64,000 nucleotides of DNA from Leptonemataceae bacterium (GCA_965227295.1 OZ245742.1:2720001-2784000); one strand, 5' to 3'. Numbered from the stretch's first letter, positions 1,969 to 55,700 are shown. The notes: generated by a model not told the origin, from the sequence alone. Program-made: numbers and translations.

Positions 1969-2796
1969 TCAGACCTCGAGTTCCATGCCCTCACGGGCGA
2001 GAAAGGCGCCGGGAAATCGTTCCTGCGCCTGTTTCTCCACGTCTTTCAGAAACAGATCGTCGTGATCCGGGTCGTGATGCGTGATGCACAGGCGTCCCAC
2101 GCCCGCGGCCTCGGCGACTTCGATCGCCTCGAGCCAGGAGCTGTGCCCCCAGCCGCGTTTCGTTTCGAGTTCTTCCGGAGTATACTGGCCGTCGTGGATC
2201 AATAAATCCGTGCCGCGAATAAATTCCAGGAAACCCGGATCGATGTTGCCGGCGTGTTCGACGTCCGTCGCGAATACGAACGAACGCCCGGTCTTCAGGT
2301 CCTTGATACGATACGAGTAGGCCGTGCCGGGATGCCGGTGCGGGAGTACGCGAATGGAAGCGCCCTGGGTGAGGTGATGATCGTCTTCGCTCTGCTTGAA
2401 CAAAAATTGGGCGCCCATTTTCTTGAGCGGAACGGGGAAGTACTCCGCCTGCATCTGTTGTTCGAAGATGGCTTCCAGATCCAAATGTCCGCGCCCCCGA
2501 CCGATGGCGCCCAGGGTGATGTGCCGCCGCGGATCGTAGGCCGGTTCGAAGAACGGAAAGCCCTGGATGTGATCCCAGTGAAAGTGCGTGAAGCCGATGT
2601 GTATGTTGTCGAATTGCTCGAAACGACCGGCCACGATGTCCTTGCCCACCTGGCGAATGCCCGTCCCCGCGTCGATGATGCCGAAGCGCCCACCGCTGTC
2701 CGTAACGAGTAGACACGTGGTGTTGCCGCCGAATTCCTGAAACTCCGGATGCGATACGGGGATCGAACCGCGTGTTCCGTAAAAGTTCACTTTCAT
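1969..2796 (-). CDS. MBL-fold metallo-hydrolase (RNase Z/phosphodiesterase-like)
   Basis: 'GTRGSIP', 'THFHWDHIQG', 'WGHSS', 'HHDP'. Confidence 0.9.
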   Translation of the reverse strand: MKVNFYGTRGSIPVSHPEFQEFGGNTTCLLVTDSGGRFGIIDAGTGIRQVGKDIVAGRFEQFDNIHIGFTHFHWDHIQGFPFFEPAYDPRRHITLGAIGRGRGHLDLEAIFEQQMQAEYFPVPLKKMGAQFLFKQSEDDHHLTQGASIRVLPHRHPGTAYSYRIKDLKTGRSFVFATDVEHAGNIDPGFLEFIRGTDLLIHDGQYTPEELETKRGWGHSSWLEAIEVAEAAGVGRLCITHHDPDHDDLFLKDVEKQAQERFPGAFLAREGMELEV

Positions 2797-2843
2797 TACA
2801 GTGGTAACCTCACAGCCGAAATCCCATCGAAACACATTAGATT

Positions 2844-3434
2844 ATGCAAGAAGTCTTGAACAGTATTTTCACGAGCACCTATCCCTGGTATGTCGCAGGT
2901 CCGCTCATCGGAGCGATCGTTCCGGTGCTGCTCTACTTCGGCAACCGGCACTTCGGTGTTTCGTCGTCGTTGCAACATCTCTGCCGGTTGGTGCTGCCCG
3001 GCAGTCGCGCGCGGCTCATCGAGTATTTCAACTACGACCTGCGCAGTGTCGACTGGGCCCTGGTCTTTACGATCGGTCTCGTGCTCGGCGGCGGCCTGGG
3101 CGCGTATGCCTCCCTGCCGGACGGCAACGACATTGCCATGAATACGCAGGAAGATCTGGCCGCCCTGGGCATTACCGACCTGGCCGGCCTGGTTCCGGCG
3201 CAGGTCTTTTCGCTTGAGAACCTGGCGAGCTGGCAGGGCATGCTGATCATGATTCTCGGCGGTTGGATGATCGGCTTCGGCACGCGCTACGCGAACGGCT
3301 GCACCTCGGGGCACGCCATCATGGGGCTGTCGTTGCTGTCCCCGGTATCGCTGATTGCCACGGCGACGTTTTTCCTCGCGGGGATCCTGGCCACGCACTT
3401 CCTGTTTCCCTTTATCTTCGGAGGCGCGCCGTGA
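2844..3434 (+). CDS. YeeE/YedE sulfur-transport family membrane protein
   Basis: 'FGVSSSLQHLC', 'GFGTRYANGCTSGHAI'. Confidence 0.9.
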   Translation: MQEVLNSIFTSTYPWYVAGPLIGAIVPVLLYFGNRHFGVSSSLQHLCRLVLPGSRARLIEYFNYDLRSVDWALVFTIGLVLGGGLGAYASLPDGNDIAMNTQEDLAALGITDLAGLVPAQVFSLENLASWQGMLIMILGGWMIGFGTRYANGCTSGHAIMGLSLLSPVSLIATATFFLAGILATHFLFPFIFGGAP

Positions 3435-3853
3435 AACATCTTGCGAAGTATTTGTTTTACCTGGTCGCCGGAACGTATTCAGGATTTGTCTTTATGCGCG
3501 GCGAGGTCATCTCGTGGTTTCGCATCCAGGAAATGTTTCGTTTCGATGCCTTTCATATGTACGGCGTCATCATGTCCGCCGTCGTGACGGGGGCACTTTC
3601 GGTCCTGGTGCTGCGCCGGTTGGGCGGTCGTGATTTTGCGGGGGAGCTCTTAGATTTATCTCAGAAGAACTTTACGAAAGGCACGGTGATCGGCAGTGTT
3701 TTCTTCGGTCTCGGCTGGGCTTTCACCGGCGCCTGTCCCGGCCCGCTGTACACGCTCGTGGGAGCGGGGCAGTGGATCATCCTCGTTCCGCTGGGGGCGG
3801 CGGTACTGGGGGCGTTTACGTACGGTGTGCTGAAGCCGAAGTTACCGCATTGA
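3431..3853 (+). CDS. YeeE/YedE family membrane protein (second half of the pair)
   Basis: GTG start overlapping previous stop; 'SWFRIQEMFRF..FHMYG', 'FGLGWAFTGACPGP'. Confidence 0.88.
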   Translation: MKHLAKYLFYLVAGTYSGFVFMRGEVISWFRIQEMFRFDAFHMYGVIMSAVVTGALSVLVLRRLGGRDFAGELLDLSQKNFTKGTVIGSVFFGLGWAFTGACPGPLYTLVGAGQWIILVPLGAAVLGAFTYGVLKPKLPH

Positions 3854-3869
3854 AGGCTGCTCAGAAATC

Positions 3870-5504
3870 TTACACCACTTTACTCCACGAACCTTCCCCG
3901 GCCTGGTTGACCGCGCGCACGCGATAACGAAAGTTTCCCGTATCCGCGTCGGAATCCAGCAGTGACGTCGTTTCCACGCAGGCGTGCAGCATTTCCCAGT
4001 GCATGTCGTCGGTGCGGCGGCGTTCCACCTGGTAGATGGCCGCGCCGTCCGTGACGGACCAGTCCACGCGCATGCCGTTATCGTCGACCCGGGTGTGGAC
4101 GTCGTGCACTCGCCCCGGTGGTTCCGCGCGCACCAGGATTTCTTCGAGGGCCTGCGGGCCCCACGAGTCCTGACGTTGCCGGGCCAGCTCGCGAACCTCG
4201 TGGGCGAACTCGGGGTAGTCGGTGAGGATCTCATGAAACGTATCGTAATCCAGGACGTAGAGATCGCAGTAGTCCAGGGCGCGGACACTTGCGGTTCGCG
4301 GGCGGTCGAGCAACAGGGCAATCTCACCGAAGAAACTGCCCTCGGTCAGGGTCGCATAGACCGTGCGACCGTCCTCGCCTAAAATCTCCACGCTGCCGCG
4401 GCTGATGAAGAACATGGTCGTGCCGTGCTCGCCGTGCCGGAAGATGAAGTCGCCCGGTGTATAGACCGCCGGCGAAAGTTCGAGCACGAGCCGGCGAATG
4501 AGATCCTCGTTTGCGCCTTTGAAGATGGGCACCTTTTCGATGATGTCCTGATTTAGGAACAGCGCCACCTTGAGTTGCAACGACGGCGGCAGTTCGTGGA
4601 TGACGTCGGCCTCGTCGTAACCGCGACGGGACTCCCATAGATATTCGTAGTAACTGCGAATGTTTGCCTGGATCTCCTCGGGGATCTTGCGGAGCTTCAT
4701 GAAGGTGTTGATCTTCTCCATCTTCTCCATGTATTGGGCGCGCGCGATGTTTACGTTCGCGAGCAGGCTCGCAATGTTACCGATGACGTAACCGTACATG
4801 CCGGCGCCCACGATCTGTAAGACCACCGTGTAAATCGTTTGAAGGTTCGTACTGGGCGTGATGTCGCCGTAGCCGATGGTGGTGATCGTGGTGATGGCCC
4901 AGTAAAACGAGCGCAGATAGTAGCGGTACGGATCGGCCGTGTCCTCGGGCGGCATGGCTTCCGTACCGAGGATCATCCAGCCGCAGGCCATCCAGTGCGA
5001 GAGCAGGAGGACCCAGAACGCCAGGAAGATCATCCGCAGCACGCTGACGTTCACCATGGAGGCCCGGCTGATCTCCTGCATGAGCTGGACGATGCGCGCC
5101 AGACGAAAGAGGCGCAGCAGGCGGACGATGCGCGCCGTATCCGTGAGCGCGCCGACGGTGTTCTGGAGGATCAACTGAAACGGGAAGGCCGCCAGGAAGT
5201 CGAAGACGAACCAGCTCCGGAGATAACGCCCGGCAATGTCGCGGCGTCGGGTGATCAACTGCCCCTGGGCATAGACGGCGGTCTGGAACGTCAACAGGAT
5301 GTCCACGGTGAACGAGGTGCTGAGCAAGGTGTCGACGTAGGGCAGGAGGCCGGTGGCCTCGTAGTCCAGGACCAGGCGCAGCGGGACCTCCACGGCCGCG
5401 TAGACGGTCAGCAGCAGGATGTAGGCGTCCCAGAGTTCCTTGATGAGACTGTTCGGGCGGAGCAGGGGCCAACCGCCTTCCCGGACCAGAATGCGACTGA
5501 ACAT
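3870..5504 (-). CDS. Cyclic-nucleotide-gated cation/K+ channel (6TM + CNBD) with C-terminal fibronectin-III-like domain
   Basis: S4 'RIVRLLRLFRLARI', filter 'TIGYGD', CNBD 'FFGEIALL..PRTASVRA', tail 'YRVRAVNQAGEGSWS'. Confidence 0.9.
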   Translation of the reverse strand: MFSRILVREGGWPLLRPNSLIKELWDAYILLLTVYAAVEVPLRLVLDYEATGLLPYVDTLLSTSFTVDILLTFQTAVYAQGQLITRRRDIAGRYLRSWFVFDFLAAFPFQLILQNTVGALTDTARIVRLLRLFRLARIVQLMQEISRASMVNVSVLRMIFLAFWVLLLSHWMACGWMILGTEAMPPEDTADPYRYYLRSFYWAITTITTIGYGDITPSTNLQTIYTVVLQIVGAGMYGYVIGNIASLLANVNIARAQYMEKMEKINTFMKLRKIPEEIQANIRSYYEYLWESRRGYDEADVIHELPPSLQLKVALFLNQDIIEKVPIFKGANEDLIRRLVLELSPAVYTPGDFIFRHGEHGTTMFFISRGSVEILGEDGRTVYATLTEGSFFGEIALLLDRPRTASVRALDYCDLYVLDYDTFHEILTDYPEFAHEVRELARQRQDSWGPQALEEILVRAEPPGRVHDVHTRVDDNGMRVDWSVTDGAAIYQVERRRTDDMHWEMLHACVETTSLLDSDADTGNFRYRVRAVNQAGEGSWSKVV

Positions 5505-5615
5505 GATGATATGATTGCGGTTAATGGAGTGGATCTGCGTAAAGCGAAAATCCGCGGCGGCGAAACTGCGCGAACTTGCTTGACTCAAACGCGGCGCGTT
5601 CTTCCATACAGAACG

Positions 5616-6269
5616 ATGGCGAAACGCAAAGAGAAGCGCAGGAGTCGGGCGGTCTCGCCCCGGGCGCTCTACGAACTGGGCAATGAACGCAATAAGGTGC
5701 ACATCCGCTGGCTGCTGGTCGTGCTCATCACGGGCTATCTTTCCTACTTACTGAGAGCCGACAAGGGCCAGGAAATCGGCACGAACCATCTGTTCTCCTG
5801 GGAGTACATCATCGCCATTACGGCGTTCATTGTCATCGCGAACATCCTCTTTGCGACCTACCTGCGCCTGGTCGCCGCGGACCGCCTGCCCATGCTGCGC
5901 ATCCTCAAGTATCTGAGCATGATCGTGGACTTCATCGCCGTTTCCCTGGTGCTCATCCCCACCGGCGGCGACCGCAGCATTTTCTTCGTCGTGTACTTCA
6001 TCGTCATTGTTTCGAACAGTCTGCGCTACGGCATGCGCCTGGCCGTGGCCGGCCTCTTTGCCTTCAACTTTTCCTACGTCGGCGTCCTCATTTACCAGTA
6101 CTGGCCGGACCTGGTCGTGCCGAACTTTCAGGGCGAGATCCTGAAAGTCGGCGCCTTCTGGGTTGTCGGCCTCTACTGCGGCTACATCGCCCGGCGTTTT
6201 GAAGTGTTGCAGGGCGAGGTGGAGAAGTATCAAGAACTTGTCCGTAAACTTATGGAACCTAAGAGTTAG
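5616..6269 (+). CDS. Multi-pass membrane protein, sensor-like, with no output domain
   Basis: Several hydrophobic segments in the 3' part of the 4839..6269 ORF; ATG at 5616; short coiled-coil-like tail. Confidence 0.75.
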   Translation: MAKRKEKRRSRAVSPRALYELGNERNKVHIRWLLVVLITGYLSYLLRADKGQEIGTNHLFSWEYIIAITAFIVIANILFATYLRLVAADRLPMLRILKYLSMIVDFIAVSLVLIPTGGDRSIFFVVYFIVIVSNSLRYGMRLAVAGLFAFNFSYVGVLIYQYWPDLVVPNFQGEILKVGAFWVVGLYCGYIARRFEVLQGEVEKYQELVRKLMEPKS

Positions 6270-7235
6270 CCGAAGTTCGAGAGTTGTGGTTCGTTGCGTT
6301 AGTCGTGAGACACACAAGGTAAGTTGCGCAATGGTCAAGGGGTTGATTTGGCTACAGCTGAGCGGGAGTTGTGGAGTTTCGTATTGCAAACATCGTCCGC
6401 ATCGACCCGGACGTTGGTTTGTGACTCAGCTATCGTAACGTATCTTACGGCGAAGACGCCGTTCCGGTGCGCACCCCACATTTCCCCGGGACAACCTCCG
6501 TGGTCGCCTGGAACCAGCCGTACCCATAAAAGTCTTAATGTACATTGGCCGCTACTTACACCACAATTCGGGGCGTGTTCGAACGAATAAAACGTTTCCG
6601 GTAGTTCAAGAGCTGCGGTTCGTTGCGTTGGCCGTGAAAAACAGAAAGTAAGCCGGCAAATGCTGAAGGGCCTTTTTTGGCTACGGCTCTTCGGAGTTGT
6701 GGATTTTCGTTTTGTTAAGCACGCTGGAGTCGACCCGGGCGCTGGTTGTGCGGATCCGCTATCGTAAACTTGCGGTGAAGACGCCGTTCCGGTGCGCGCC
6801 CCACATTTCCCCGGCATAACCTCCGCACGTGAGCTGGAACCCGCCGTACCCATAAAAGTCTTAATGTACATTGGCCGCTACTTACACCACAATTCGGGGC
6901 GTGCTCGAACGAATAAAACGTTTCCGGTAGTTCAAGAGCTGCGATTCGTTGCGTTGGCCGTGAAAAACAGAAAGAAAGTTGCGCAACGGTTAAGGGCCTT
7001 TTTTGGCTACGGCTCTTCGGAGTTGTGGATTTTCGTTTTGTTAAGGATGCTGTGCTCGACCCGGACGCTGGTTGTGCGGATCCGCTATCGTAAACTTGCG
7101 GTGAAGACGCCGTTCCGGTGCGCGCCCCACATTTCCCCGGCATAACCTCCGCACGTGAGCTGGAACCAGCCGTACCCATAAAAGTCTTAATCCAAACTGG
7201 CCGCCACTTACACCACGATCCGGGGCGTGTGCGAA
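6270..7235. repeat. Tandem array A of a ~326-bp non-coding repeat (units start ~6275, 6604, 6930)
   Basis: GAAGACGCCGTTCCGGTGCGC at 6452/6777/7103; TCGACCCGG at 6402/6730/7056; GGGGCGTG at 6570/6896/7222. Confidence 0.97.
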
Positions 7236-7661
7236 TTACTTACGAAGATATCGAATGAGCCGCAGGGCCGGTGTCGGGGAAAACACGCCGCCGCCGATCA
7301 GAAGGTTCATGCTGTCCGCGGCCGGATCGCGCAGTTCGGGTTTCCAGACGTAGCCGCAGGAACCGGCGCGGAGACACTGGAGGATCGTCTCGGTGCGCGC
7401 CGATCGTGAGATGATCGCGGGGATCGGCGACAGGCGTCGCCGCCGCAGGCGACCGAGGAAGGCCGTCGCCGGCATGCGCGGCAGGAGGGCCTCAAGCCAG
7501 AGGATGTCGCAATCGCCGGGCTCGCTCAAGAAATGCTCGGCGGATTCGTACTCCAGGATGCCGGCCGTGCGCGGGTCCTGGTTCAGGCGCTCCCGTAGAC
7601 TGTAACGGAAGCAGCGATCCGGATCGATGATGGCGGCGATGTAGGTGCGGAATCCGGACAT
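7236..7661 (-). CDS. Degenerate NarL-type receiver domain lacking the LuxR HTH (possible pseudogene)
   Basis: Resembles the N-terminal part of 51918..52553 ('SAEHF', 'GYVWK', 'SPTPA'); acceptor Asp position reads 'WLEAL'. Confidence 0.55.
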   Translation of the reverse strand: MSGFRTYIAAIIDPDRCFRYSLRERLNQDPRTAGILEYESAEHFLSEPGDCDILWLEALLPRMPATAFLGRLRRRRLSPIPAIISRSARTETILQCLRAGSCGYVWKPELRDPAADSMNLLIGGGVFSPTPALRLIRYLRK

Positions 7662-7910
7662 GCCCGAATCATTGGACGCGGCGTTTCCGTGCCGTCACGC
7701 CGTCCGCGCGGGAAATCCAGGGGCGGCTAAGATTCTTTTGCAAAAAGTTACTCATCATCATGAAAGTGAGGGGTGTCGGAAACAGTATTCGGTCGCGGGA
7801 ATGTGAGTGAAAAAATTTACCCGCGCGGTCCTTTTCCATTGCAATTTTCGTCCAATCCTCTAGTATCATCAAAGTCCCCGGAATCATCAAATTGGCAACC
7901 GGACCGGCCG

Positions 7911-9182
7911 ATGGCACACGATTCGATGCTGCTCACCGACGAAATCCCCGTCCTCCTGGAAGCCGAGGCTGAATCCGCCTCGGTCCTCGTGGTGGACGAC
8001 AGCAAGTTGAACCGCCACGTTCTGTCCGATTTGCTGCGGGACGACGGCCACCGGGTTACCGCCGTGAGCGACGCCCGGGAGGCCCTGGAGCTCGTGGCGA
8101 AGCGGGACTTCGATCTGGTCCTCCTGGACGTGGTCCTGCCGGACATTGACGGCCTGCACGTCCTGGCCCAAATGCGGCGGGACGCCCGGCTGCGGGAAAT
8201 CCCGGTTATTATGATCACCGGTCTGGCGGAACTGGAGAGCGCTGCACGCTGCATCCAGATGGGCGCGGAGGACTATATCTTCAAACCTTTCGATCCGGTG
8301 CTCCTGCGCGCGCGGATCGGGGCGTCCCTGGAGAAGCGGCGTCTGCGGACCCTGGAGCGGGCCTACCTGGCCCGGCTGGGCCAGGACAATCGTCGCAAGA
8401 CGGAAGAGATCGAGCAGGCCCGACTCATCCAGGATGCGTTGTTGCCCGGGACCGCGCCCGCGTGCGCTTTTCTGGAAATCGCCTCGCGCCAGCTGGCCGC
8501 TACCGAGGTCGGCGGGGACTACCACGATTTTCACTCCCACGGCGAAAATCATCTGGGCTGCGCCGTCGGCGACGCCACCGGTCACGGCGTCGGTGCCGGA
8601 ACCATGGTGGCCATCACGAAGGCGCTGCTCATCTCCGCGGTCCGGGCGGCGGAAGCCGGGAATGTGAACACCCACGAGATCGTCAACCCGCGCCGCAATC
8701 GGCTGCCGGGCGTCGTATCGCACTTAAACGAATCCATCTACAAGACCGGGCTGGGCGAGCAGTCCAACATGGCGCTCATGCTCTTCGACTTCTTCCGCGA
8801 TGAGCGCGGTGTCCGCGTCCACGCCTCGGGCGGGGCCATGCCGCCCGTCTATATTGTGCGCGCGTGCGGCGTTCTGGACAGCGTCGAAATCTGGGGCGCG
8901 CCGCTGGGCATTACGAAGAGCGCGAACCTGGAGTACGACGACATCGCTTTCTTCCTGAATCCCGGCGATGTAATGGTGCTCATGAGCGACGGCCTGCCCG
9001 AAATGGTGAATCCCCTGGACGTCATGCTCGATTACGATCGCCTGGAAGAACGCCTGGGTCACATCGATCCCGGTCAGAGCGCGGCCGCCATCCTCGAAGA
9101 TGTCTGGCAGATCGGCGCCGGTTGGGCCGAGGCCGTCCCCCCGCGCGACGATATGACCGTCGTCGTTCTCAAAGCCAGCTGA
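7911..9182 (+). CDS. Response regulator receiver + PP2C/SpoIIE phosphatase (RsbU-like)
   Basis: 'VLVVDD', 'LLDVVLP', 'VGGDYHD', 'GDATGHG', 'SDGLPE', 'DDMT'. Confidence 0.92.
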   Translation: MAHDSMLLTDEIPVLLEAEAESASVLVVDDSKLNRHVLSDLLRDDGHRVTAVSDAREALELVAKRDFDLVLLDVVLPDIDGLHVLAQMRRDARLREIPVIMITGLAELESAARCIQMGAEDYIFKPFDPVLLRARIGASLEKRRLRTLERAYLARLGQDNRRKTEEIEQARLIQDALLPGTAPACAFLEIASRQLAATEVGGDYHDFHSHGENHLGCAVGDATGHGVGAGTMVAITKALLISAVRAAEAGNVNTHEIVNPRRNRLPGVVSHLNESIYKTGLGEQSNMALMLFDFFRDERGVRVHASGGAMPPVYIVRACGVLDSVEIWGAPLGITKSANLEYDDIAFFLNPGDVMVLMSDGLPEMVNPLDVMLDYDRLEERLGHIDPGQSAAAILEDVWQIGAGWAEAVPPRDDMTVVVLKAS

Positions 9183-9305
9183 TCGCTACGCTTGCGCTTG
9201 CCGGACGACCGGTCGTTCAAGAGCGGGCAGGCGTCGGTATTCTTTTCTTGCTTCTCTGCTACCGCGACGTTGAATTCGGTCCTCGTCTTAACGACGGACC
9301 TCGCT

Positions 9306-10223
9306 ATGAACGCCGAAGCCTATCAGGAGATCGTCGACGTGGTGCGGCGGATGAATCGTGAGCATGCGAACGATCCGCTGCCCACCGTCCCGGATCTGGT
9401 GCCGCAACTGGATCAACGTTTTTATCGGGACAGTGTTGCACTAAATGCGGCGTTGAAGGCCCTGGTGGAGTCGAACATGTTGTTCGTCCTGCATCTCGTG
9501 GAGCCGGACGAACGTTTGAAGATCGAAGCGGTGAGCGCTTACGTGACGGCCGAGGCTTCCGTGGTGAACGAGCTGCGCGACTTCGCCGACGCGCGTCTGG
9601 AAGCCGCCTACGAACGCCAGTTCTATCGTCGCCGCGGCGCGGCGAGCATCATTAAAGAACTTTTTCCGGAGATTAAGAAATACAACAATTCCCCCCTGGG
9701 CCGCATCCTGAACGCCGCGGTGATGCTCGGCCAGTTCGCGAGTGTGCTGGACCGGGATCCGAACTCTTACTCGGAAGCCGAAAAACGCCGCCGTCTTAAA
9801 GAGTACTTCGCCGAAACTTACGAGGCCCCGGGCCCGGATGCCGCGGCCCCCGCGCCGCCCGTGGATGAGGACGGAGAACCGCGCCGCGCCGTGGACGCCG
9901 TCGCCGGTCTCGAAGCCGAGGAGATGGATCTTTCCGGGGCCTGGGGCGAGGCCGTGGAAAAGTTCGGCGTGGAGTTTCTATTGCGCATTCATTTCCGCAA
10001 GCACGAGTTCAACAAGATCAAGTTCCTGGTAAATACGCGCAAGATCGCCCGGGAGACGGATTTGATCTTCATTCGCGATACGGTGCGCACGTTGCAGACT
10101 CGCGCCATGGAAGGCCGCGACCCGCAGTTGCGCGGTTCCATTACGGCCATGCAGAATCTGTTAAGTTCCGTGCATGTGAAGTTACAGATCATTCAGCTGG
10201 AAAAAGAAGAGAAGGGGCTGTAA
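9306..10223 (+). CDS. Hypothetical protein
   Basis: Long ORF with normal codon usage; no recognised motif. Confidence 0.75.
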   Translation: MNAEAYQEIVDVVRRMNREHANDPLPTVPDLVPQLDQRFYRDSVALNAALKALVESNMLFVLHLVEPDERLKIEAVSAYVTAEASVVNELRDFADARLEAAYERQFYRRRGAASIIKELFPEIKKYNNSPLGRILNAAVMLGQFASVLDRDPNSYSEAEKRRRLKEYFAETYEAPGPDAAAPAPPVDEDGEPRRAVDAVAGLEAEEMDLSGAWGEAVEKFGVEFLLRIHFRKHEFNKIKFLVNTRKIARETDLIFIRDTVRTLQTRAMEGRDPQLRGSITAMQNLLSSVHVKLQIIQLEKEEKGL

Positions 10224-54990: not shown

Positions 54991-55048
54991 GCGAAGGCGC
55001 ACTCGCTCCGCCCCGCGGATAGAGCGGGGCTCCGGAGTGCGCCTTCGC
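54991..55048. repeat. GC-rich palindrome (REP-like or bidirectional terminator)
   Basis: GCGAAGGCGCACTC (54991-55004)/GAGTGCGCCTTCGC (55035-55048); inner GCCCCGC/GCGGGGC. Confidence 0.75.
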
Positions 55049-55066
55049 TTGATGGATTTCCCGAGT

Positions 55067-55700
55067 TAAAAATCTTAATGTACACTGGCCGCCACTTACT
55101 TAACGATCCGGGGCGTGGTGGAACAATCAAAGAGTTCCCGGTATTTCAAGAGCTGCAGTTCGTAGCGTTTGCCGCGAGACACAGAAGGTAAGTTGCGGAA
55201 TGGTTCAGGGGTTGATTTGGCTACAACTGAGCGGGAGTTGTGGATTTTCGTTGTGTTAAGGCAGTCCGCCTCGACCCGGACGTCGGTTTGCGGCTCAGCT
55301 ATCGTAACGTTTCTTACGGCGAAGACGCCGTTCCGGTGCGCGCCCCACATATCCCCGGCATGACCTCCGACCGTGAGCTGGAACCAGCCGTGACCATAAA
55401 AGTGTAAATCCAAACTGGCCGCCATGTACACCACGATTCGGGGCGTGCTCGAATGCATAAAAAGTTCCCGGTAGTCCAGGAGCTTTGGTTCGCGGTGTTT
55501 GCCGTGAGACACATAAGGTAAGTTGCGCCATGGTTAGGGGTTTGATTTGGCTACGGCTCTTCGGAGTTGTGGAGTTTCGTGTTGTTAAGATTGTCCGCCT
55601 CGACCCGGACGTCGGTTTGCGACTCAGCGATCGCGAATGCGCACCCGCGCCGGCGTCCCACACCATTTCTTACGAAGAAGACGCCGTTCCGGGGCCGCGC
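55067..55700. repeat. Tandem array B of the same ~330-bp repeat family (partial + full + partial unit)
   Basis: GGGGCGTG at 55110/55440; TCGACCCGG at 55271/55600; GAAGACGCCGTTCCGG at 55321/55677; collinear with 6270-7235. Confidence 0.95.

What the first reader, a model, noticed from the sequence alone, without database searches (positions are those of the whole stretch)
6270..7235. Head-to-tail array of a ~326-bp non-coding unit filling a convergent intergenic gap
Seen: three collinear units (starts ~6275, 6604, 6930; anchor spacings 325-329 bp) with invariant blocks (TTTGGCTAC, GGAGTTGTGGA, TCGACCCGG, GAAGACGCCGTTCCGG, CTGGAACC, CCATAAAAGT, GGGGCGTG). Unit lengths differ by non-multiples of 3, so it is not a coding repeat. 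There are no unique spacers, terminal inverted repeats or adjacent transposase. The unit is much longer than REP or CRISPR repeats and matches no family I recognise. Inference: an undescribed element that propagates as concatemers (for example rolling-circle or retro-type) or a tandem ncRNA locus. This is the best candidate for a new system in the window.
Basis: partly seen in the sequence, partly recalled or inferred. Interest (0 to 1): 0.88.

Follow-up and report, generated by a model that had tools for sequence, protein, structure and literature searches.

The report
Orphan 330-bp intergenic tandem repeat
The flagged stretch is three head-to-tail copies of a non-coding 326-bp unit that occurs about 300 times at some 120 gene ends of this one bacterial chromosome; it is likely a very long relative of the selfish intergenic repeats of other bacteria rather than an RNA gene or a rolling-circle product, and this scan had already met the family in other windows.

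Summary
Window 6274-7241 holds 2.9 head-to-tail copies of a 326-329-bp unit. They fill a convergent gap from 4 nt after one stop codon to the other stop codon.

It is one of about 115-120 loci of a family (about 300 unit hits, 75 kb, 1.25% of a 5.94-Mb chromosome). This scan had already reported the family from at least eight other windows of the same genome.

- **Not coding or a known RNA:** no frame stays open, there is no Rfam match, and almost no conserved fold on either strand.
- **Not rolling-circle or retro:** array ends cluster at fixed positions, no ribozyme is present and no RT gene is adjacent.
- **Placement:** arrays favour gene 3' ends in either orientation.
- **Hairpin cap:** many arrays are capped 5' by a family-specific GC-rich hairpin with compensatory stem changes.
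- **Origin:** the unit contains an ~80-nt boxed core that two sister species carry only as 16-27 solo copies; 39 genomes of 20 other genera in the family have none.
- **Enzyme:** none identified. No Y1/RAYT or TnpB gene, and the IS1595-like ends differ.

Verdict: a new, unusually long, tandem variant of REP/BIME/MIRU-like intergenic repeats. Function is unproven and moderately interesting.

The parts
6274..6602 (+). Unit 1 (329 bp), the most diverged copy; it begins 4 nt after the TAG stop of the upstream gene
   Evidence: 81% identical to unit 2
6603..6928 (+). Unit 2 (326 bp), full length
6929..7241 (+). Unit 3, ending at unit position about 313-318, the family's commonest 3' terminus. Its last bases overlap the stop codon (7236-7238) of the minus-strand gene
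   Evidence: 92% identical to unit 2
6340..6423 (+). Ancestral boxed core inside unit 1 (boxes GGCTAC.GCT / GGAGTTGTGG / TCGT.TTG / TCGACCCGGACG)
   Evidence: core model R1, 64.4 bits, E 6e-21
6669..6749 (+). Ancestral boxed core inside unit 2
   Evidence: R1, 70.6 bits
6995..7076 (+). Ancestral boxed core inside unit 3
   Evidence: R1, 71.5 bits
6352..6374 (+). Terminator-like hairpin that forms on the + strand only (its G-U pairs become mismatches on the other strand), followed by a T-rich tail; unit 1 copy
   Evidence: pairs 79-85/95-101
6681..6702 (+). The same hairpin with a TTCG loop (CTACGGCTC-TTCG-GAGTTGTGG) followed by ATTTTCGTTT; unit 2 copy
7007..7028 (+). The same hairpin; unit 3 copy
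5652..6269 (+). Upstream flanking gene, about 205 aa, membrane-like with no family match. The listed ORF 4839-6269 is over-extended at its 5' end
7236..7661 (-). Downstream flanking ORF, 141 aa, weak receiver-domain similarity below Pfam's cut-off
54991..55049 (+). GC-rich imperfect palindrome H capping the window's second array of the same family; by my crude gene calls it starts 3 nt after the end of the same-strand upstream gene
   Evidence: genome position 2775005
55067..55695 (+). Second array of the same family in this window (unit positions 251-326, 3-326, 1-193)

Best explanation
The flagged DNA is a three-unit head-to-tail array of a non-coding 326-329-bp repeat belonging to a family of about 300 units at about 120 intergenic loci of this chromosome, and it is most likely a REP/BIME-like selfish or domesticated DNA repeat that was probably seeded at gene ends by an unidentified sequence-specific DNA enzyme and then likely lengthened in place by tandem duplication.

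Shown:
- the family, its size and its restriction to one genus;
- the lack of coding capacity and of a conserved RNA fold;
- the preference for gene 3' ends;
- the modular unit, with a conserved ~80-nt boxed core, an optional or alternative GC-rich hairpin module H, and fixed preferred array ends;
- the fact that neighbouring units are on average closer to each other than to units elsewhere.

Inferred:
- the near-invariant boxes and the covarying hairpin are recognition sites for a protein acting on DNA (possibly single-stranded DNA);
- that protein dispersed the element;
- growth of arrays is by unequal recombination or slippage;
- any host benefit (mRNA 3'-end protection, termination or topological buffering between convergent genes) is secondary.
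For: - **Family and abundance:** 318 HMM hits in 115 loci, 74,368 bp, 1.25% of the genome. A better HMM gives 303 hits in 120 loci.
- **Non-coding:** at least 1.86 stops per unit in every frame over 79 units, 1- and 4-nt indels between units, and no Pfam or NCBIfam match for the ORFs inside the array.
- **No RNA signature:** no Rfam hit at E<=1. Alifold gives -11.6/-16.3 kcal/mol with no double compensatory change. The sister-species cores give about -1.7/-1.6 kcal/mol.
- **Gene-end placement:** 49 of 115 loci lie in convergent gaps against a 19% background, and 7 of 115 in divergent gaps against 19%. In co-directional gaps, 31 arrays have the genes' orientation and 28 the opposite (crude gene calls).
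- **Sequence-level constraint:** 115 of 330 columns are >=95% conserved among copies that are about 79% identical, and conserved columns cluster (longest run 10, p=0.005). The boxes occur outside arrays only at chance level.
- **Modular ends:** starts fall at unit positions 1-20 (40 of 120) or 121-175 (47 of 120). Ends fall at 301-330 (66 of 120) or 151-195 (33 of 120).
- **Hairpin H:** 42 of 44 copies are in or at arrays, always co-oriented with the unit, 19 of them capping array 5' ends. Three stem pairs show compensatory variants around a conserved internal loop.
- **Local growth:** within-array identity is 85% against 79% between arrays. The nearest neighbour is an array-mate for 28 of 52 units. 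The closest between-locus pair is only 91% identical. U2/U3 are 92% identical against 81% for U1/U2.
- **Mobility in the genus:** the core is present in the 3 genomes of the genus and in 0 of 39 genomes of 20 other genera. Only 1 of 12 sister-species core loci has a flank orthologue within 1 kb of an array here. The orthologous gap of the flagged locus is 28 bp and 126 bp in the sisters, with no repeat.
- **Replication bias:** moderate; 30 of 86 arrays >=300 bp are co-oriented with the leading strand (p=0.007).
Against: - **No enzyme found:** no Y1/RAYT and no TnpB. The one IS110-type gene and the 10 RT genes are not next to arrays. The IS1595-like element has unrelated ends. Genes between neighbouring arrays are unrelated housekeeping genes.
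- **Not clearly active:** the closest units at different loci are only 91% identical, so recent transposition is not seen and the family may be extinct as a mobile element. The strong box conservation would then need another explanation, such as a host function or gene conversion.
- **This array lacks H:** the flagged array has no H hairpin and no palindrome of REP type.
- **Possible RNA role:** a + strand-only hairpin with a T-rich tail in every unit, and H sitting within 15 nt of a stop codon in 9 of 19 capped arrays, leave room for a role at the RNA level.
- **No insertion site defined:** no clean filled/empty pair could be aligned, so target site and duplication are unknown.
- **Crude gene calls:** context counts rest on a crude gene caller that misclassified the flagged locus itself.
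Confidence: 0.6

Rival explanations
1. Host-level RNA element: the units (and the H cap) would act in the 3' untranslated region of the upstream gene as transcription terminators or exonuclease-blocking hairpins, or as small RNAs processed from read-through transcripts.
For: Each unit has a 9-pair hairpin that can form only on the + strand (three G-U pairs), with a TTCG or 7-nt loop and a T-rich tail. The scan found 5 terminator-like sites against 2.3 +/- 1.4 in shuffles, and three of the five are this hairpin. The stem is >=99% paired in 79 units, with a G-U to A-U change in 18 of them. H begins within 15 nt of a same-strand stop codon in 9 of 19 capped arrays, and 14 of 19 have a same-strand upstream gene. 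Arrays are enriched at gene 3' ends.
Against: In co-directional gaps arrays point with the genes 31 times and against them 28 times. There is no double compensatory change in the unit. In the sister species the same boxes are conserved but the stem is not complementary. One hairpin would suffice, so arrays of 2-7 units are not explained. No promoter-like site was found. No RNA data were available.
Confidence: 0.17
3. One reading: concatemers made by rolling-circle replication or rolling-circle reverse transcription of a circular ~326-nt template and then integrated.
For: The arrays are head to tail with partial first and last units. Among 45 solo or partial loci, 25 share the 3' terminus while their starts are scattered, which faintly resembles 5' truncation. 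The genome has 10 RT genes.
Against: Ends cluster at two start and two end positions rather than random phases. 7 of 15 solo copies with an intact 5' end are truncated at the 3' side. Units within an array are unequally diverged. No self-cleaving ribozyme or other Rfam family is hit. No RT lies within 6.5 kb of an array. There is no HUH/Y1 enzyme and no endless reading frame.
Confidence: 0.05
4. Assembly artefact or decayed protein gene.
For: None beyond the general difficulty of assembling repeats.
Against: The three units differ at about 8-19% of positions, with indels. 115-120 loci have unique flanks on a single-contig chromosome. There is no family match for any ORF and stops occur in all frames.
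Confidence: 0.02

Closest known systems
REP elements, BIMEs and REPINs with their RAYT transposases (enterobacteria, Pseudomonas). I saw the abstracts of PMC3337134 and PMC3116915; further properties are recalled.
   Same: Both are high-copy and extragenic, concentrated behind gene ends, and clustered into mosaic arrays of alternating modules. Both are lineage-restricted and involve an imperfect GC-rich palindrome with an unpaired internal part (H here).
   Different: The unit is 326-330 bp, against about 20-40 bp for a REP or about 100 bp for a REPIN. Copies are strictly head to tail, not inverted doublets. The palindrome is present in only 42 places and is absent from the flagged array. No Y1/RAYT gene is in the genome.
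MIRUs, mycobacterial interspersed repetitive units. They are described as minisatellites with copy-number variation in the abstract of PMC3635867; unit size and number of loci are recalled.
   Same: One non-coding unit is repeated in tandem at many dispersed intergenic loci of one lineage, with different copy numbers per locus.
   Different: MIRU units are several-fold shorter (40-100 bp, recalled). The arrays here have defined modular ends and a hairpin cap, lie in either orientation, and make up 1.25% of the genome.
Neisserial intergenic mosaic elements (NIMEs) and pneumococcal BOX elements. These were named by earlier agents of this scan; their properties are recalled and I did not check them.
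   Same: Both are composite intergenic repeats built from a few box modules in variable number.
   Different: Their modules are much shorter. Nothing here resembles dRS3/RS or boxA-B-C at sequence level. This comparison was not tested.
Eukaryotic dispersed satellite DNA, such as newt satellite 2 (330-bp tandem unit spread over all chromosomes; abstract of PMC2114352).
   Same: Similar unit length, head-to-tail arrays at many dispersed sites, and no coding capacity.
   Different: The host is bacterial, the arrays hold only 1-7 units, no ribozyme family is hit, and nothing is known about transcription.

Membership tests
REP / BIME / REPIN-RAYT | The repeat is a short imperfect palindrome (REP), or two of them in inverted orientation (REPIN) | tested here: not met
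   The flagged units have no such palindrome. The only internal inverted match is 17 nt (71-87 against 243-259). An inverted second core is not significant (z=1.4; minus-strand box 1 only, E about 0.1). The family's hairpin H exists at 42 sites elsewhere but not in this array.
REP / BIME / REPIN-RAYT | A cognate Y1 (RAYT/TnpA-REP) transposase gene in the same genome | tested here: not met
   PF01797 gave 0 matches in the own genome, while 6 of 14 control genomes were detected. Genome completeness is 93.55% by marker genes, on a single contig.
REP / BIME / REPIN-RAYT | High-copy, extragenic, enriched behind gene 3' ends | tested here: met
   115-120 loci; 49 of 115 in convergent gaps and 7 of 115 in divergent gaps, each against a 19% background.
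MIRU-type dispersed minisatellite | The same unit in tandem at many intergenic loci with variable copy number | tested here: met
   Loci range from fragments to 7.3 units.
MIRU-type dispersed minisatellite | Unit of roughly 40-100 bp (recalled) | tested here: not met
   Period 326; model length 330.
Structured non-coding RNA gene (any Rfam family) | Match to a covariance model, or a conserved fold supported by compensatory changes | tested here: not met
   No Rfam match at E<=1 on 5500-8000 or on 11 sister-species loci apart from one chance snoRNA hit at E 0.6. Alifold gives -11.6/-16.3 kcal/mol with no double changes in 79 units.
MITE of a resident insertion sequence | Terminal inverted repeats, and ends shared with an autonomous element in the genome | tested here: not met
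   No terminal inverted repeat. The ends of the IS1595-like element are unrelated. The full-unit HMM hits nothing outside the arrays. Target-site duplication could not be assessed.
Rolling-circle or retro concatemer (retrozyme-like, DRT2-like) | Self-cleaving ribozyme or associated RT/HUH gene, random array phase, or a stop-free frame through the concatemer | tested here: not met

The most novel reading that the evidence does not exclude
This is a true bacterial satellite DNA: a 330-bp unit assembled in one species from an ancestral 80-nt boxed element plus a covarying hairpin. It would be dispersed to over a hundred gene ends by an enzyme of a kind not yet linked to repeats (no Y1, TnpB or adjacent RT or transposase), and kept by selection because a protein reads its boxes, for example to insulate converging genes. 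Under this reading the array's orientation bias relative to replication reflects a single-strand DNA step.
Probability: 0.15. Interest if true: 0.75.

Novelty: new variant of a known kind. Interest (0 to 1): 0.45.

Why it matters
Bacterial genomes rarely tolerate repeats, and the known intergenic families (REP, BIME, REPIN, MIRU, BOX) have units of tens of bases. Here a 330-bp non-coding unit fills 1.25% of a chromosome in tandem arrays. Its ancestral 80-nt core is still solo in sister species, so the birth and growth of a satellite-like repeat in a prokaryote can be followed step by step. The near-invariant boxes and the covarying hairpin predict an unknown sequence-specific partner. If found, it would be either a new repeat-spreading enzyme or a new DNA-organising protein. 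The practical value is modest: the arrays are likely hypervariable markers and hot spots for recombination and island insertion.

Tried and rejected
2. **Exact 21-mer in the species genome collection:** 0 hits.
3. **Exact 18-mer in metagenome contigs:** The unit HMM shows that 0 of the 80 fetched loci hold more than the seeded word and a few adjacent bases.
4. **Plasmids and phages,** distant blastn: no match.
5. **Coding:** rejected. A weak period-3 hint in column variability (0.12 against 0.16) is not backed by any open frame.
6. **Unit as a back-to-back doublet of the core** (an earlier agent's reading): only a 17-nt box is shared in inverted orientation, so I do not adopt it. Two sister-species loci do show tail-to-tail core doublets.
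7. **MITE of the IS1595-like element that piles up at gene ends** (lead): the ends are unrelated.
8. **Recurrent gene between neighbouring arrays:** none among 35 proteins in 19 gaps.
9. **5'-truncation signature:** weak and contradicted by 3'-truncated copies.
10. **Filled/empty site comparison at the L039 locus:** the intergenic DNA is too diverged to align. The supposedly empty site in this genome holds two tiny inverted fragments of the unit's 3' box.
11. **Sigma-54 promoter reading of box 1** (GG-N10-GC spacing, by eye, consensus recalled): the -12 element is poor and is absent from units 2 and 3. Dropped without a formal test.
12. **Integron attC reading of hairpin H:** its ends do not resemble the attC boxes as I recall them. 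Not tested.

Full report
**Observation.** Tandem Repeats Finder reports one array at 6274-7235: period 326, 2.9 copies, 87% matches. I cut it into U1 6274-6602, U2 6603-6928 and U3 6929-7240. U2 and U3 are 92% identical, and U1 is 81% identical to U2.

The array starts 4 nt after the TAG (6267-6269) of a + strand gene. Its last bases include the stop (7236-7238) of the minus-strand ORF 7236-7661, so the convergent gap is filled completely. The upstream ORF listed as 4839-6269 is over-extended, because the orthologues in two same-genus genomes match only residues 272-475 at 68-69% identity. The real gene is about 5652-6269.

**It is one locus of a large family.**
- BLAST of U2 against the window's own genome (5,938,550 bp, one contig) gave 155 matches.
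- An HMM of the three units gave 318 hits in 115 loci, 74,368 bp or 1.25% of the genome.
- An HMM of 79 full-length units gave 303 hits in 120 loci.
- A second array lies in this window at 55067-55695.

The scan's earlier notes show that at least eight other windows of this genome were reported for the same family. Those agents mostly filed it as an orphan REP/BIME/NIME-like repeat. I treated the notes as leads and repeated the key tests.

**Not coding and not a recognisable RNA.**
- All six frames carry 1.86-4.89 stops per unit over 79 units, and the units differ by 1- and 4-nt indels.
- The ORFs that run through the array have no Pfam or NCBIfam match.
- Rfam gives nothing at E<=1 on either strand of 5500-8000, which also covers the self-cleaving ribozyme families.
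- RNAalifold on the 79 units predicts about 20 pairs at -11.6 kcal/mol (+ strand) and -16.3 kcal/mol (- strand), with no pair changed on both sides.
- No sigma-70-like promoter is found in 5900-7700.
- The only recurrent structure is a 9-pair hairpin in each unit (6352-6374, 6681-6702, 7007-7028). Its three G-U pairs mean it can form only on the + strand, and it is followed by a T-rich tail.

**Where the arrays sit.** I used a crude GC3-based gene caller (4471 genes).
- 49 of 115 loci lie in convergent gaps, against a 19% background.
- 7 of 115 lie in divergent gaps, also against 19%.
- 59 lie in co-directional gaps, where 31 arrays point with the genes and 28 against them.

The caller misclassified the flagged locus itself, because it missed the 205-aa gene, so these counts are approximate. 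Loci are spread evenly along the chromosome. GC skew places the origin near 1.18 Mb and the terminus near 4.09 Mb. Of 86 arrays of at least 300 bp, 30 are co-oriented with the leading strand (binomial p=0.007), while 53% of genes are. This is a moderate bias from a single test, and I read it with care.

**Anatomy.** Array ends are not random:

| | Position in unit | Loci (of 120) |
|---|---|---|
| Starts | 1-20 | 40 |
| Starts | 121-175 | 47 |
| Ends | 301-330 | 66 |
| Ends | 151-195 | 33 |

The flagged array runs from position 1 to about 313-318, which is the commonest combination. The 3' ends have no cap.

Many arrays that start near 130-170 are preceded by a GC-rich imperfect palindrome, H. 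Allowing up to 6 mismatches, its 31-nt core has 44 matches in the genome. Of these, 42 are in or at arrays, always in the unit's orientation: 19 at array 5' ends and 23 internal. Internally it is either inserted after unit position ~163 or ~198, or it replaces positions 119-165.

Among 36 distinct H copies, three outer-stem pairs show compensatory variants (CG 16 / GC 11; CG 25 / TA 8; GC, CG and TA) around a conserved internal loop. Of the 19 capping copies, 14 have a same-strand upstream gene, and 9 begin within 15 nt of its stop. The flagged array has no H; the window's second array has one (about 54991-55049).

Conservation is uneven. 115 of 330 columns are at least 95% conserved, and they cluster (longest run 10, p=0.005 against shuffles). 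The boxes occur outside arrays only as often as base composition predicts.

**History.**
- Units of one array are on average 85% identical, against 79% between arrays. The nearest neighbour is an array-mate for 28 of 52 units. The closest pair at different loci is 91% identical.
- So arrays grow by local duplication, U2/U3 being an example, while dispersal is old.
- BLAST finds the unit in 1 of 40 related genomes, and only as weak partial matches.
- Those matches led to a short boxed core (GCTACGG / GGAG.TGCGG / CGTTTTGCAA / TCGGCCCGGACG) that corresponds to unit positions ~73-150.
- The core has no consensus fold on either strand and no Rfam match.
- In each flagged unit the model finds one forward core (6340-6423, 6669-6749, 6995-7076). 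On the other strand it finds only a marginal box 1 match, so I do not adopt the earlier back-to-back doublet reading (see, z=1.4).
- The sister species' cores are mostly at other loci. Of 12 distinct loci, one has a flank orthologue within 1 kb of an array here.
- At the flagged locus the sisters have gaps of 28 bp and 126 bp without any repeat, although their downstream neighbours differ.
- One syntenic pair could not be aligned across the gap. The site in this genome holds two tiny inverted fragments of the unit's 3' box.

**Search for a driver.**
- The genome has no Y1/RAYT gene (controls were detected) and no TnpB.
- It has one IS110-type gene and 10 RT genes. None is closer than 6.5 kb to an array.
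- The unit HMM hits nothing beside any of them.
I found it at 34.4-40 kb, but its ends are unrelated to the unit's.
- The 35 genes lying between neighbouring arrays are unrelated ordinary genes, apart from one rve-type IS that splits a unit.
- There is no match in plasmids or phages. None of the 80 metagenome loci fetched with a conserved 18-mer holds the family.

**Interpretation.** I commit to a DNA-level intergenic repeat of the REP/BIME/MIRU kind. In this reading an ancestral 80-nt boxed element of the genus became part of a 330-bp composite in this species. It was seeded behind genes and then lengthened by tandem duplication. The boxes and hairpin H would be the recognition sites of an unidentified protein; all of this last part is inferred.

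It fails the membership tests for REP/REPIN-RAYT (no short palindrome in the unit, no inverted doublet, no Y1 gene), for MIRU (unit size), for MITEs and for any Rfam family. So it is a new variant and not a member of those families.

The rolling-circle or retro reading is disfavoured by the fixed array phases, the unequal divergence of units, and the lack of a ribozyme, an adjacent RT or an endless frame. An RNA-level role as a terminator or 3'-end stabiliser, and a host protein-binding role, both remain open. They cannot be settled without expression or binding data, which I could not obtain.

**Literature.** I saw the search listings and abstracts of PMC3337134 and PMC3116915 (REPINs and RAYTs), PMC3635867 (MIRUs as minisatellites) and PMC2114352 (newt 330-bp satellite). 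I read no full text. Searches found no description of a bacterial 326-330-bp dispersed tandem repeat or of such a family in Leptospirales. The library lacks most subscription journals, so this is not proof of absence.

Noticed in passing
window 54991-55695: A second array of the same family in this window. It is capped at its 5' end by the GC-rich palindrome H, which by my crude gene calls begins 3 nt after the end of the same-strand upstream gene.
   Followed up: partly
window 3870-6269: The 476-aa ORF 4839-6269 (+) overlaps the minus-strand cyclic-nucleotide-gated ion-channel gene 3870-5702 and is over-extended. Orthologues support only its last ~205 aa (5652-6269).
   Followed up: yes
window 2000-5660 and 6270-9190 against L028/L029: Compared with the two same-genus genomes, two blocks have no counterpart at the syntenic place: the sulphur-transport genes plus the channel gene, and the block array + 141-aa receiver-like ORF + response-regulator/SpoIIE phosphatase (7773-9182). 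The flanking genes at 1286-1951, 5661-6272 and 9303-10214 are collinear.
   Followed up: partly
own genome C1:34459-40060 (outside the window): Head-to-tail pile-up of ~1255-bp IS1595-like units with ~24-bp terminal inverted repeats and a TGTTCTAG-like junction. More copies lie at 8.7-11.3 kb and 5.896-5.927 Mb.
   Followed up: partly
own genome C1:1034576-1036050: A repeat unit is split at about position 76-83 by a 1.15-kb insertion that encodes a 356-aa rve-type (IS481/IS3-like) transposase.
   Followed up: no
own genome, 10 loci (e.g. C1:32821, 40883, 765390, 3743265): Ten reverse-transcriptase genes fall into about five groups, several as identical multi-copy genes of 456, 472 and 624 aa, which suggests active group II introns. 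One 341-aa RT at 3069061 is single-copy.
   Followed up: no
L035:1387-1623 (G001) and G002:C9:1499042-1499299: In the sister species two loci carry two cores tail to tail on opposite strands about 30 nt apart, a REPIN-like doublet. Two cores (L031, L035) also carry extra hairpins inserted between box 1 and box 2.
   Followed up: partly
own genome C1:1419405-1419714: An intergenic site without an HMM-detectable unit holds two inverted ~22-nt fragments of the unit's 3' box flanking a small GC hairpin. The orthologous gap in G001 holds a solo core instead.
   Followed up: partly
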